From the human T2T-CHM13v2.0 reference genome, Homo sapiens, in NCBI GenBank assembly GCA_009914755.4, contig CP086569.2, positions 2,560,001 to 2,624,000 of the forward strand: a DNA stretch of 64,000 nt. Reading direction: 5' to 3'. Every line of letters begins with the position of its first letter. The stretch's first letter is position 1. Below are positions 44,976 to 48,518 of this stretch, piece after piece. The position numbers and the translations under genes are program-made. The notes beneath the pieces are model-generated. The model was not told the origin of the DNA and ran no database searches. It saw only the letters and a list, made by a program, of their open reading frames with translations.

Positions 44976-46254
44976 GTTTTTAAAATAAGTGGTATTGCAT
45001 TGGTCCACATAAACATGAAGGAAGCAAGTAGTGTCTATAGAGCTTGTTCCTCAACAAAAATACTTGCGAATGTGAAGGTAAACTTTTCTTTTTGTATTTG
45101 TCTTTGTTTGTCTTTCAAACCTGTGAAGTATTTTGAATATACACACATGGAGAATTACTCCACATATCCATCACTCAGCTTCTATAACTGTTACAACATA
45201 GACAAATCTTATTTCATGTATACCTTTCACCTATTTCACGATCCACTCATGATCCTCCCTCAACTTCACAGTTTTTTGAAGCAAATTTCTGAAATATCAT
45301 TTCCTGTAAAAATATTTTGATGGCATATCTTTAAAAGATAGGAATTCTTTTTTAAGGGTATAATTACATAATCATGTCAAAATAAACATTAACAAAAGCA
45401 TTCAAATTCAACATATTAACAAGAATATGTAGGTATATAATAATATATATATTTGTATTGTATCTGTATATCATAATAGATGTATATTCATGTATATCTG
45501 TATATATAGGCATATTAAGAGTTTATATATTTCAAAGTCATAGTTTTTATAGTTATTTTTCTGGATCAGGATTAAAATAAATCTTATATAATTGTTTAAT
45601 ATGCCTTTTAAGCATCTTCTAATTTATTGATTTTCCCCTCCATTTTTATCTCATATTTTTTATTTAATAAAGAAAAGTCATTTGTCCAGTAGAGTTTCTC
45701 GCCCTCTGAATTGTGTTAATCTATTCCTGTAAAACACTCCCCACCACCATGGCTTTACATGTTTCTCTAAGCCCCTAAATTTATTGTAAATTAGTGGTTA
45801 AATCTAGAGGATTGATTGTGTACAAGACTGCTTTGGGGGAGTTAGGAAACAAATTACTTTATAGATCTTATTGTGCATATCCTTCATAGGGCACATATCT
45901 AATTGTCTTCTAGTAGTCACTGATAATCATTGCTTTAGATTAATTTAGGTACTAGGGCTTGCAAAATGGTGGTATTCTCCTATTGTCTATCCTTTATGAA
46001 TTACTTGGAGTACACTTGTTTTTTGTATTTGACGTTTTTATTTTAGGCTGTAAAAACAAAAACAAGCCAAACAAGCCAGCAAGCAAACAAGAAGAAGAAA
46101 ACAACAACAACACAAACCTTGAAATAGACTTGTCAGATGTAAATATTTCTTTTCTAGGGAAATAGAAGGTAGGCCATCTTACTTTACTGATGCTTGCTCT
46201 CTGTGAGGTTTTGATCCTGCTTTGGATTTTTGTTTTGTTGTTGTTGTTATTGTT

Positions 46255-46556
46255 GTTTTTTTTGAGACAGGATCTTACTCTGTCAGACAAGGCTGAGTGC
46301 AGTGACATAATCATGGCTCACTGCAGCCTTAACCTCTTAGACTCAGGTGATTGACCTTCCTCAGCCTCCCAAGTAGCTGAGACTTCAGGTGTGCACCACT
46401 ATACCTGGCTAATTTTTGTATTTTTTGGTAGAGATGGGATTTTACCAGGGTGATCTTTGGTCAGGGTGGTCTCTAACTCCTGGCCTCAAGTGATATGCCT
46501 GTTTCAGCCTCCTAAAGTGTTGGATTACAGGTGTGAGCCACCATACCCAGCCTGGA
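46255..46556 (-). mobile_element. Alu inserted in the acidic C-terminal region of the NAP1L1 pseudogene
   Basis: A T/G-rich tail (reverse complement) followed by GAGACAGGATCTTACTCTGTCAGACAAGGCTGAGTGCAGTGACATAATCATGGCTCACTGCAGCC...CCATACCCAGCCTGG. Confidence 0.9.
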
Positions 46557-47547
46557 TAATTTTTCTCATCTCTTTTTGTTTCCTCTTTATCATCCATTTC
46601 TTCACTTTCTTCATCATAATCATCATCATCTTCAACACTTGCTCCAGTAAAGTGTAACACTGATTTTGGGATTATACACCATTTTCACAGTCTGCAGCAA
46701 ATACAGCTTCAGCAGCATCATCCAGAACTGCATTCTCAGAACTTCAGGCAGGCAGAAAAAAATTAAAGTCATCAGAAACTGTTTTATTCCCATTAGAAAC
46801 TGTCCCACATTCCTTGTGTTTCTGCTTCTTAAAGGTTTTTATTCCTTTTTTCCCAGTCCATCTGGCACCCTGTAGAACCCATAATTTCTGGCCTATCAAA
46901 AGAAAAATGATGAGAGTCTTCTGATTTTGACTTCATACTATATGTCTTTGTCAACACTTCATTTGTGAAATATTCAGGGTTCAAAGTGAAATTCTAAGAC
47001 AAAACTCATAGGTTGGCCAGCATCTGAGAACTTCACCTTAACATCTTTGAAGTGCTTCAGAATAGGTTCATCATGTTCCTGAACTATATCATTGAGCAAG
47101 TCCAAAATTTAGGAATTCCTTTGGGGTCTTTGTTTTCTTCATCCATTTTTTCATGATCAACCTTGGCCTTTCTTTCAGCTTTGAATTTCAGCTGAAATTT
47201 TGTCTTCTTTATCTCCTTTCAATTCACATTTTTCTTCCATAGTTCATAAATTGCATTAATAACATCAAATCACGTATCAAATAGAGGCTGAGAGGGAGTA
47301 GCATACTTCCTTTCAGGATCATAAACTTCCTCATGGAATTTGGCCTCTGTCTGTGCACATTTAAGTTGCAGGTTTTTGAGAGCATTGACTCATCTTTAAC
47401 TACCTTAGGCAATCATTCAATATATCTTGTTGATCTTTCTACCAAACCATCAAGTCTTTCTCTAAAGCCTGTAAGAATCTGAGGATTTTCCATCATCTGA
47501 ACAAATCTGCTTTGATTTTTTTCTCTTCACCAGTTTCTTTTCTTTTC

Positions 47548-48252
47548 TTTCTTTTTTTGAAACGGAATCTCACTCTGTTGCCCAGGCTGGAATGCAGTGG
47601 CGCAATCTCAGCTCACTGCAACCTCCGCCTCCCAGGTTCAAGCAGTTCTCTGCCTCAGCCCCCCAACTAGCTGGGACTACAGGCATGCACCACCACACCT
47701 CATTTTTATATTTTTAGTAGAGACAGGGTTTCACCATGTTGGCCAGGCTGGTCTTGAACTCATGATCCACCTGCCTTGGCCTCCCAAAGACTTGGGATTA
47801 CAGGCGTGAGCCACCATGCCTGCTCTTTTTCTACTTCTTCAATGCCAGTCAATTTTTTTTTTTTTTTTTTTGGGCCAGGTCTCATTCTGCTGCCCAAGCT
47901 GCAATGCAGTGGCATCATCTTGGCAATTCTGCCTCAGCCTCCCAAGAGGCTGGGATTACAGGCACACATCATTGCACCCAGCTAATTTTTGTATTTTTAG
48001 TAGAAGTTGGGGTTTCACCATGTTGGCCAGGCTGGTCTTGAACTTCTGAGCTCAGGTGCTCCACCCACCTTGGCCTCCGAAAGTGCTGGGATTATAGGCA
48101 TAAGCCACCATGCGCAACTAATTTTAGTATTTTTAGTAGAGATGTAGTTTAGCCATGTTGGCCAGGCTGATCTCAAACTCTAGACCTTAGGTGATCCACC
48201 GTCTCGGCTTCTCAAAGTGCTGGGATTACAGGTGTGAGCAAACACACCCAGC
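47548..48252 (-). mobile_element. Cluster of three Alu copies or fragments (47548-47822 full, 47858-48118 near-full, 48120-48252 right arm), inserted between the N-terminal exon-equivalent and the rest of the NAP1L1 pseudogene
   Basis: direct reading of three reverse-complement Alu units. Confidence 0.9.
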
Positions 48253-48518
48253 CCCAAATCTTGTCCAAGATCAGACTCTTCTTTGTTGTCAATGTCTGCC
48301 ATGTAAGAACTCCGAATATCTGAAATGCAATCCCTCATTTCTGTTACAGTTCTTTCGGTGGATGAAAATGGCATATTTGTGCATTCTCTGGACATGCTAT
48401 AACAAGGACACTCCTTGTAACTATTGTTACATATTAACTCAAAAATTCTTTCTCAAAGTGTGGTCTGAGGGTCCTCAGACCCTTACAGGGGAATTTCGAA
48501 ACTATTTCCAGGCCGGCC

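What the first reader, a model, noticed from the sequence alone, without database searches (positions are those of the whole stretch)
46150..48400. NAP1L1 retrocopy shattered by four Alu insertions
The - strand translations reconstruct most of NAP1L1 in order and without introns: MADIDNKEESDLGQDL (about 48302), then after a 705-bp Alu triple …[21 protein letters not shown]…, then LPKVVK…, …KKQKHKECGTVSNGNKTVSDDFNFF…, …IIPKSVLHFTGASVEDDDDYDEESEEMDD…, with a further Alu in the acidic tail. Frameshifts and stops make it a dead retrocopy. It is more diverged from NAP1L1 (about 60-70% aa) than a recent processed pseudogene, which suggests an old retrocopy. The NAP1L family is known for old intronless retrogenes (NAP1L2/3/5/6P). 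Together with the HSFY-like copy, this gives a second anchor for identifying the locus.
Basis: partly seen in the sequence, partly recalled or inferred. Interest (0 to 1): 0.5.

Follow-up and report, generated by a model that had tools for sequence, protein, structure and literature searches.

The report
Old dead NAP1L1 retrocopy with Alus
This is an ordinary, long-dead processed pseudogene of the histone-chaperone gene NAP1L1 in primate DNA, later interrupted at three places by Alu elements; it is real, but it is junk-DNA archaeology and not a new biological feature.

Summary
On the minus strand, about 48356 to 46016, lies an intronless copy of the NAP1L1 mRNA. It has a probable 5'UTR remnant, the whole CDS in order, and the short 3'UTR up to the proximal AATAAA.

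- Parent: every named hit among the best 120 database hits is NAP1L1, and human NAP1L1 tops the PDB search at 6e-129.
- Processed: ten exon junctions mapped from a true multi-exon NAP1L1 gene fall on adjacent bases in the window. None coincides with an Alu site.
- Dead: 4 premature stops, 10 frameshifting indels, and Alu interruptions at three sites.
- Neutral: substitutions are spread evenly over the codon positions.
- Old: about 84% nucleotide identity to NAP1L1 cDNA-like sequences and 13% divergence on its own branch. The AluJ-like element inside it is about equally diverged. I infer an age of roughly 55-100 Myr.

- The "705-bp Alu triple" is two insertion sites separated by an overlooked 30-nt NAP1L1 piece (47852-47823).
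- The first "Alu" is only a left monomer fused in register to the second.
- No flanking target-site duplication survives, and the poly(A) tail is a 9-nt remnant.

I could not name the chromosomal locus with these tools. Interest is low.

The parts
48303..48356 (-). Probable 5'UTR remnant of the NAP1L1 mRNA, including an alternative 5'UTR exon. The true 5' end is uncertain.
   Evidence: 34/52 identity to the 5'UTR of the yak cDNA-like copy L002; 19 of 1000 shuffles score as well. No homology to the CpG-rich first exon further upstream, in nucleotide or purine/pyrimidine space.
48254..48302 (-). CDS piece 1: ATG (48302-48300) and codons 1-16, MADIDNKEESDLGQDL.
   Evidence: 13/16 aa identical to NAP1L1; 90% nt identity to the sheep copy.
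48116..48253 (-). Alu unit A1: AluS-like left monomer plus A-rich linker only (consensus positions 1-137). It is fused in register to A2.
   Evidence: 84.6% to AluSx; one Metazoa_SRP match, 48137-48252; only 74% identical to A2's left arm, 4 shared derived changes.
47853..48115 (-). Alu unit A2: AluS-like dimer (consensus 7-274) with a deletion of about 34 nt in the right arm and a 19-nt A tail (47871-47853).
   Evidence: alignment shown; non-CpG divergence 9.7%; two SRP matches.
47823..47852 (-). CDS piece 2: 30 nt matching codons ~16-26 (LDDVEEVEEE, here LTGIEEVEKE).
   Evidence: aligns to TTGGATGATGTTGAAGAAGTAGAAGAAGAA of the sheep and yak copies.
47535..47822 (-). Alu unit A3: AluS-like dimer plus A-rich tail (47558-47535). 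It is the youngest of the four (non-CpG divergence 6.0%). Its 5' edge is ambiguous by about 3-5 nt.
   Evidence: (88.2% to AluSx).
46553..47534 (-). CDS piece 3: codons ~27-377, including the whole NAP domain and most of the acidic tail. It is contiguous across ten exon junctions and carries stops and frameshifts.
   Evidence: (single blastn HSP 47553-46549, 79% over 1080 columns); Pfam NAP hits.
46227..46552 (-). Alu unit A4: AluJ-like dimer (46552-46264) plus degenerate A-rich tail (46263-46227). It is the oldest insert. A candidate imperfect target-site duplication is AAAAATTATCCA (46564-46553) / AAAAATCCA (46231-46223).
   Evidence: 78.9% to AluJo; non-CpG divergence 13.6%.
46184..46226 (-). 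CDS piece 4: the last 13 codons (..PKQDQNLTESKHQ, matching ..PKKDQNPAECKQQ) and stop codon TAA (46186-46184).
46025..46183 (-). 3'UTR of the short NAP1L1 mRNA isoform, with a deletion of about 28 nt, an expanded GT-rich tract, and the proximal poly(A) signal AATAAA at 46042-46037.
   Evidence: 74-80% identity to the 3'UTRs of the sheep and yak copies; the yak copy is polyadenylated after the same signal. No homology beyond this point.
46016..46024 (-). A-rich remnant (AAAAAACAA) at the position where the poly(A) tail should be.
   Evidence: Read directly from the sequence. The interpretation as an eroded tail is inference.

Best explanation
This is a processed pseudogene. A mature NAP1L1 mRNA (short 3'UTR isoform, probably a 5'UTR variant with an extra non-coding exon) was reverse-transcribed and inserted into the germline genome of an early primate or pre-primate ancestor, presumably by the LINE-1 machinery. 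It was never under selection and has decayed neutrally since.

Later, Alu elements inserted at three A-rich, acidic-region-coding sites:
- an AluJ-like element in the C-terminal acidic tail, which came first;
- a compound left-monomer plus AluS unit after codon 16;
- an AluS after codon 26, which came last.

Shown here: homology, parentage, absence of introns, disablement, neutral substitution pattern, Alu identity and relative ages. Inferred: L1-mediated target-primed reverse transcription, the absolute age (about 55-100 Myr), and lack of present function.
For: - NAP domain and NAP1L1 parentage.
- Full CDS in order within about 1.1 kb of non-Alu DNA.
- Ten exon junctions of the real gene (L003, at least 12 coding exons over 32 kb) are adjacent bases in the window, and none lies at an Alu site.
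- 3'UTR homology ends about 12 nt after AATAAA, at the same signal after which the yak retrocopy is polyadenylated.
- Disablement: 4 premature stops, 10 frameshifting indels and 2 in-frame indels.
- Neutrality: branch-specific substitution rates are even across codon positions (0.150/0.138/0.096, chi-square p=0.19), against 0.078/0.039/0.377 on the functional lineage.
- Age: 83.5-83.8% nt identity to the bovid cDNA-like copies; window-branch divergence 13.2% (non-CpG 12.7%).
- Non-CpG divergence of the inserts is 13.6% (A4), 11.8% (A1), 9.7% (A2) and 6.0% (A3), all at or near the host's or below it, as expected for later insertions.
- The inserts are 7SL-derived and belong to a family with 39 intervals in the window.
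Against: - No significant target-site duplication flanks the retrocopy. The best candidate is 9/11, at about chance level.
- The poly(A) tail is only a 9-nt remnant.
- The 5' end is not defined, and the 5'UTR match is modest (34/52, 19/1000 shuffles).
- No primate NAP1L1 mRNA could be fetched. Divergence is therefore measured against sheep and yak retrocopies polarised with a snake outgroup.
- Location away from the parent gene is inferred from the absence of any NAP1L1 intron or flank homology. It was not shown by mapping.
Confidence: 0.95

Rival explanations
1. An unprocessed pseudogene: a DNA-level duplicate of the NAP1L1 gene in which the interruptions are introns or intron remnants.
For: The CDS is interrupted three times by 290-400-nt blocks.
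Against: The blocks are Alu elements with A tails. They lie inside exons (after codons 16, 26 and ~377), not at junctions. All ten mapped junctions are adjacent bases, whereas the real gene spreads over 32 kb in the snake.
Confidence: 0.01
2. A retrocopy of another NAP1-like paralogue (NAP1L4, NAP1L2/3/5, TSPY or SET) instead of NAP1L1.
For: All share the NAP domain, and the copy is only 61-69% identical to NAP1L1 at protein level.
Against: Every named hit among the best 120 is NAP1L1, down to E=7e-87. The NAP1L1-specific N-terminus MADIDNKE and C-terminus (CKQQ, here SKHQ) are present. The 3'UTR is homologous to NAP1L1-derived cDNA copies. I did not align the other paralogues explicitly.
Confidence: 0.01
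3. A formerly functional NAP1L1-derived retrogene, analogous to NAP1L2/3/5, that was maintained for a time and then died.
For: The NAP1L family has produced functional intronless genes (general knowledge). Sheep and yak carry intronless NAP1L1 copies with intact 391-aa ORFs.
Against: Branch-specific substitutions show no deficit at codon positions 1 and 2 (0.150 and 0.138 against 0.096 at position 3). Any period of purifying selection must therefore have been short or absent.
Confidence: 0.03
4. A secondary copy: the retrocopy inserted elsewhere and reached this position inside a later segmental duplication or transposition. The window also holds an HSFY-like copy, and such copies are known from the Y chromosome and from 22q11.1.
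For: An HSFY-like ORF at 93-485 hints at a duplication-prone region. HSFY1P1 is catalogued at 22q11.1 (PMC5607249).
Against: Nothing in the window bears on it, and there is no second NAP1L1 fragment here. It would not change what the element is.
Confidence: 0.1

Closest known systems
Catalogued human NAP1L1 processed pseudogenes (the HGNC NAP1L1P series; NAP1L1P1 and NAP1L1P3 appear in the literature)
   Same: Intronless, disabled copy of the NAP1L1 mRNA with UTR remnants, in Alu-rich primate DNA.
   Different: I could not determine which catalogued pseudogene this is, if any, because no primate genome or annotation was searchable. It is older and more fragmented than a typical recent processed pseudogene (about 16% nt divergence, three Alu-insertion sites).
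Intronless NAP1L1 copies in sheep (L001) and yak (L002)
   Same: Derived from the same mRNA. The yak copy uses the same proximal poly(A) site and carries the same alternative 5'UTR exon.
   Different: The bovid copies are young. Their ORFs are intact (391 aa, or 444 aa when fused to upstream sequence), and they are 96-100% identical to NAP1L1 protein. The window copy is dead and about 13% diverged on its own branch.
NAP1L2, NAP1L3 and NAP1L5 (functional intronless NAP1-like genes)
   Same: Intronless members of the NAP family thought to have arisen by retroposition (general knowledge, not tested here).
   Different: Those keep open reading frames and are under selection. This copy has 4 stops and 10 frameshifts, evolved neutrally, and descends directly from NAP1L1.
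Alu elements (AluJ and AluS subfamilies) and compound or multimeric Alus
   Same: 7SL-derived monomers with an A-rich linker and an A tail, inserted at A-rich target sites.
   Different: The A1-A2 unit is a left-left-right arrangement in register under what looks like a single weak TSD pair. A1 lacks a right arm and a tail of its own, which simple target-primed insertion does not explain.

Membership tests
Processed pseudogene (retrocopy) of NAP1L1 | Sequence homology to the parent mRNA along the whole CDS, in order | tested here: met
   tblastn; blastn single HSP of 1080 columns; four-way alignment with 83.5-83.8% nt identity.
Processed pseudogene (retrocopy) of NAP1L1 | Absence of introns at the parent's exon junctions | tested here: met
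   Ten junctions transferred from the multi-exon snake gene L003 are adjacent bases in the window. The first coding junction (about codon 4/5), the last (about codon 366) and the 5'UTR junctions were not mapped precisely.
Processed pseudogene (retrocopy) of NAP1L1 | Carries mRNA UTRs and ends at a polyadenylation site | tested here: met
   3'UTR 74-80% identical to the sheep and yak copies, AATAAA at 46042-46037, and homology stops about 12 nt later. The 5'UTR match is weaker (34/52).
Processed pseudogene (retrocopy) of NAP1L1 | Poly(A) tail at the 3' end | tested here: inconclusive
   Only AAAAAACAA (46024-46016) remains. This is compatible with erosion in an old element but is not proof.
Processed pseudogene (retrocopy) of NAP1L1 | Flanking target-site duplication | tested here: inconclusive
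   The best direct repeat is 9/11 (48355 against 46021), at chance level for the search space. The 5' end is undefined, and decay is expected at this age.
Processed pseudogene (retrocopy) of NAP1L1 | Disabled reading frame and neutral evolution | tested here: met
   4 premature stops, 10 frameshifting indels, three Alu-disrupted sites. Substitution rate is even across codon positions (p=0.19).
Processed pseudogene (retrocopy) of NAP1L1 | Lies at a locus other than the parent gene | not testable with these tools
   No primate genome could be searched. This is inferred only from the absence of NAP1L1 intron or flank sequence.
NAP1L1 and not another NAP paralogue as the parent | Best match to NAP1L1 in protein and UTR sequence | tested here: met
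   Every named hit among the best 120 is NAP1L1. PDB: NAP1L1 at 6e-129 against 6e-29 for the next NAP protein. 3'UTR homology. Human NAP1L4, NAP1L2, NAP1L3 and NAP1L5 were not aligned explicitly.
Alu SINE | 7SL-derived monomers: a dimer with an A-rich linker and a 3' A tail | tested here: met
   Seven Metazoa_SRP matches (E 7e-8 to 8e-4, all below Rfam's gathering score, as expected for Alus). A tails read directly. A1 is a monomer only.
Alu SINE | Target-site duplications flanking each insertion | tested here: inconclusive
   Candidate A-rich repeats exist at all three sites: AAAAATTATCCA/AAAAATCCA for A4, GAAAAAGAG-like for A3, and (A)AGATTTGG/AAAATTGAC for A1+A2. They were read. They are short, A-rich and imperfect.
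Functional NAP1L retrogene (NAP1L2/3/5-like) | Intact open reading frame under purifying selection | tested here: not met
   Stops, frameshifts and no codon-position bias.
Unprocessed duplicated pseudogene | Retains intron sequence at exon boundaries | tested here: not met

The most novel reading that the evidence does not exclude
The least ordinary reading still open has two parts. First, the retrocopy may predate the primate radiation; its branch divergence is about equal to its AluJ insert and could be older. In that case it would be a shared, datable marker across several mammalian orders. Second, the A1-A2 left-left-right compound may record an unusual Alu formation event (unequal left/right-arm recombination or template switching) and not two ordinary insertions. 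A regulatory or lncRNA role for the transcript cannot be excluded, but nothing here supports it.
Probability: 0.07. Interest if true: 0.2.

Novelty: already known. Interest (0 to 1): 0.06.

Why it matters
It matters little biologically. Processed pseudogenes of highly expressed housekeeping genes such as NAP1L1 are abundant, and Alu insertions into them are routine. Three uses remain:
- It is a sequence landmark for placing the window in a primate genome, together with the HSFY-like copy at 93-485.
- It gives a small internal time series for the local neutral substitution rate: the host pseudogene, then AluJ, then two AluS-age events.
- It illustrates that A-rich acidic-tract coding sequence attracts Alu integration.

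Tried and rejected
- **Primate NAP1L1 mRNA or gene.** I fell back on the sheep and yak cDNA-like copies plus the snake gene.
- **Sheep and yak loci as genomic references.** I expected L001 and L002 to be the genomic genes. Both proved to be intronless retrocopies, so I used them as mRNA proxies.
- **Long 3'UTR isoform.** By eye the copy seemed to continue past the proximal poly(A) site. Local alignment scored no better than shuffles (17 against a mean of 16.5 and a maximum of 20.5), so I rejected this.
- **TSD around the whole retrocopy.** Only a 9/11 match at chance level.
- **CpG-rich first exon upstream of 48357.** No signal in nucleotide or purine/pyrimidine alignment.
- **A1 as a recent duplicate of A2's left arm.** Rejected: 74% mutual identity and 4 shared derived changes.
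- **Metagenome scan.** A pseudogene-specific 24-mer gave 0 hits. I did not use the second scan.
- **Literature.** NAP1L1P1 and NAP1L1P3 are mentioned only in expression lists, with no coordinates. HSFY1P1 is placed at 22q11.1, but no link to this window can be shown.
- **Rfam mir-1268 and mir-3135 hits.** They lie inside Alus and below threshold, so they are not genes.
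Full report
**1. Observation**

The minus strand of 45800-48800 was read and translated in three frames.
- MADIDNKEESDLGQDL, starting at the ATG at 48302
- ..[22 protein letters not shown]..
- LPKVVK
- ..KKQKHKECGTVSNGNKTVSDDFNFF..
- IIPKSVLHFTGASVEDDDDYDEESEEMDD..

Two of the mechanical ORFs alone exceed Pfam's threshold for the NAP domain, at consecutive profile positions (95-136 and 138-184). 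tblastn with the 391-aa NAP1L1 protein P0001 gives linked HSPs at E=1.7e-52 and 9.5e-21, and nothing comparable elsewhere in the window.

**2. Parent gene**

A frameshift-corrected conceptual translation (371 aa) was searched against the large protein collection.
- 1090 proteins scored E<=1e-10. Every named hit among the best 120 is NAP1L1, from 6.7e-125 to 7e-87. None is NAP1L2-5, TSPY or SET.
- Against PDB sequences, human NAP1L1 scores 6e-129. The next NAP-family proteins (nematode, yeast, Plasmodium) score 6e-29 or worse.
- The NAP1L1-specific termini are recognisable: MADIDNKE.. at the N-terminus, and ..CKQQ* (here ..SKHQ*) at the C-terminus.
- The homology continues into the 3'UTR.

The parent is NAP1L1.

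**3. References used**

No primate NAP1L1 mRNA or gene could be fetched.
- The locus encoding P0001 in sheep (L001) and a yak locus (L002) both turned out to be intronless copies with intact ORFs and UTRs. I used them as cDNA proxies.
- A genuine multi-exon gene was obtained from the rattlesnake (L003; 32 kb). tblastn mapped at least 12 coding exons on it.

**4. Processed nature**

After excising the Alus, the window copy aligns colinearly with the sheep and yak CDS and the spliced snake CDS. Ten exon junctions transferred from the snake gene fall on adjacent bases in the window:
- 47511/10, 47416/15, 47273/72, 47193/92, 47079/78
- 47007/06, 46868/67, 46744/43, 46723/22, 46619/18

The three interruptions (48254|47852, 47823|47534, 46553|46226) lie inside exons, not at junctions.

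**5. Ends of the copy**

3' side:
- After the stop codon (TAA, 46186-46184), the 3'UTR is 74-80% identical to that of the sheep and yak copies.
- It carries a deletion of about 28 nt and an expanded GT-rich tract.
- Homology runs through the proximal AATAAA (46042-46037). The yak copy is polyadenylated after the same signal.
- Beyond about 46025 there is no homology to the longer sheep 3'UTR. The local score is 17, against a shuffle mean of 16.5.
- Only AAAAAACAA (46024-46016) remains where the tail should be.

5' side:
- The 54 nt before the ATG are 34/52 identical to the yak 5'UTR, which contains an extra non-coding exon. 19 of 1000 shuffles do as well.
- The CpG-rich first exon cannot be recognised upstream, even in purine/pyrimidine space.
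- The 5' end therefore lies somewhere around 48344-48376.

No significant target-site duplication flanks the element.

**6. The interruptions**

| Unit | Coordinates | Description |
|---|---|---|
| A1 | 48253-48116 | AluS-like left monomer plus linker only (consensus 1-137) |
| A2 | 48115-47853 | AluS-like dimer, consensus 7-274, deletion of about 34 nt in the right arm, 19-nt A tail |
| NAP1L1 piece | 47852-47823 | 30 nt, TTGACTGGCATTGAAGAAGTAGAAAAAGAG, matching LDDVEEVEEE |
| A3 | about 47822-47535 | AluS-like dimer with A-rich tail |
| A4 | 46552-46227 | AluJ-like dimer with a degenerate A-rich tail |

- Independent support that these are 7SL-derived: Rfam reports seven sub-threshold Metazoa_SRP matches on the minus strand, one in A1 and two in each of A2, A3 and A4. 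The family has 39 intervals in the window.
- A1 joins A2 in register, giving a left-left-right arrangement. A1 and A2's left arm are only 74% identical to each other and share 4 derived changes. A1 is therefore not a recent duplicate. Whether the compound arose by early unequal recombination or by two events is unresolved.
- All three sites lie in GAA/A-rich stretches that code for acidic residues. This fits the A-rich target preference of L1-mediated integration (established knowledge; inference here).
- With 0.6-0.7 Alus per kb in the window, about 0.8-0.95 would be expected in 1.33 kb. Three or four is a mild excess (my arithmetic; P about 0.05-0.07 for three or more).

**7. Decay and age**

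- Lesions: 4 premature stops in the codon-aligned register (codons 69, 77, 117, 305), 10 frameshifting indels (deletions of 7, 1, 1, 22, 2, 14, 16 and 8 nt; insertions of 1 and 7 nt) and 2 in-frame deletions.
- Identity: codon-aligned amino-acid identity is 68.8%. Nucleotide identity is 83.5-83.8% to the bovid copies.
- Branch-specific divergence: at the 833 sites where sheep, yak and snake agree, the window differs at 110, which is 13.2%. The Jukes-Cantor distance is 0.145, and the non-CpG figure is 12.7%.
- Neutrality: these changes are spread evenly over codon positions (15.0%, 13.8%, 9.6%; p=0.19). The functional sheep-snake comparison gives 7.8%, 3.9% and 37.7%. The copy has drifted neutrally essentially from birth.
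- Non-CpG divergence of the inserts from their consensus is 13.6% (A4), 11.8% (A1), 9.7% (A2) and 6.0% (A3). The values are at or near the host's or below it, in a sensible order.
- Absolute age (inference): using textbook ages for AluJ (about 55-65 Myr) and AluS (about 30-45 Myr), and neutral rates of 1.5-2.2e-9 per site per year (general knowledge), the retrocopy is roughly 55-100 Myr old.

**8. Mechanism**

- Shown: an mRNA-derived, intronless, disabled, neutrally evolving copy that was later hit by Alus.
- Inferred: L1-mediated target-primed reverse transcription of a NAP1L1 transcript that used the proximal poly(A) site, followed by erosion of the tail and TSDs.
- Rivals:
  - Unprocessed duplicate: excluded.
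  - Other paralogue: excluded.
  - Once-functional retrogene: disfavoured.
  - Secondary copy via segmental duplication: cannot be tested here, and would not change what the element is.

**9. Comparison with the known, and novelty**

Processed pseudogenes of NAP1L1 are catalogued; the symbols NAP1L1P1 and NAP1L1P3 occur in the literature. I could not tell which one this is, because no primate genome or annotation was searchable and a metagenome scan for a pseudogene-specific 24-mer found nothing. The HSFY-like ORF at 93-485 is real, and HSFY1P1 is catalogued at 22q11.1, but that does not establish the locus. This is a known kind of object, and almost certainly an already annotated one.

**10. 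Verdict**

- three insertion sites
- an overlooked 30-nt coding piece
- a monomer-only first Alu
- a longer 3' extent
- no surviving TSD or full tail

The interest score is 0.06.

Noticed in passing
window 93-485 (-): A 130-aa ORF (MAHVSSETQDVSPKDELTGSEASTRSPF...) with a Pfam HSF-type DNA-binding domain hit (3.4e-6). HSFY1P1 is catalogued at 22q11.1 (PMC5607249), but I could not show that this window is that locus and not a Y-linked HSFY copy.
   Followed up: partly
window 52100-53300: A GC-rich island of about 1.2 kb (66-73% GC, against 31-45% in the flanks) with long ORFs on both strands (52782-53487) and no Pfam hit. It looks like a CpG island or promoter.
   Followed up: partly
window 38185-38526 (-), 35090-36805 (-), 22261-22800 (+), 40528-40890 (+): LINE-1 fragments. 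The ORF at 38185-38526 hits the L1 ORF1 dsRBD-like domain at 9e-38. The other ORFs look like L1 ORF2 C-terminal pieces by eye, with no Pfam support. The weak 'wnt' hit at 22261-22800 is probably spurious.
   Followed up: partly
L001 10001-11176 (sheep) and L002 16230-17411 (yak): The representative of the 1090-member NAP1L1 protein cluster (P0001) is encoded in sheep by an intronless locus with UTRs and an intact 391-aa ORF. Yak has a similar copy annotated as a 444-aa fusion with upstream sequence. So bovids carry young, possibly expressed NAP1L1 retrocopies, and some are annotated as if they were the gene.
   Followed up: partly
window 48116-48253 joined to 47853-48115 (-): A left-left-right Alu compound in register. 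The first unit has no right arm or tail of its own, is only 74% identical to the second unit's left arm, and the pair seems to share one weak TSD pair. Its mode of origin is unresolved.
   Followed up: partly
window 46281-46411, 47579-47638, 48650-48777: Sub-threshold Rfam matches to mir-1268 and mir-3135 fall inside Alu elements. They reflect Alu-derived miRNA families, not genes at this locus.
   Followed up: no
window 48512-48800 (+): A further Alu, in the opposite orientation, lies about 150 nt upstream of the retrocopy's probable 5' end. It limits any search for the 5' flank and TSD.
   Followed up: no
window 46055-46105 (-): The GT-rich tract of the NAP1L1 3'UTR, (TTG/TTTG)n, is expanded by about 30 nt relative to the sheep and yak copies. 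This is microsatellite-like growth inside the pseudogene.
   Followed up: no
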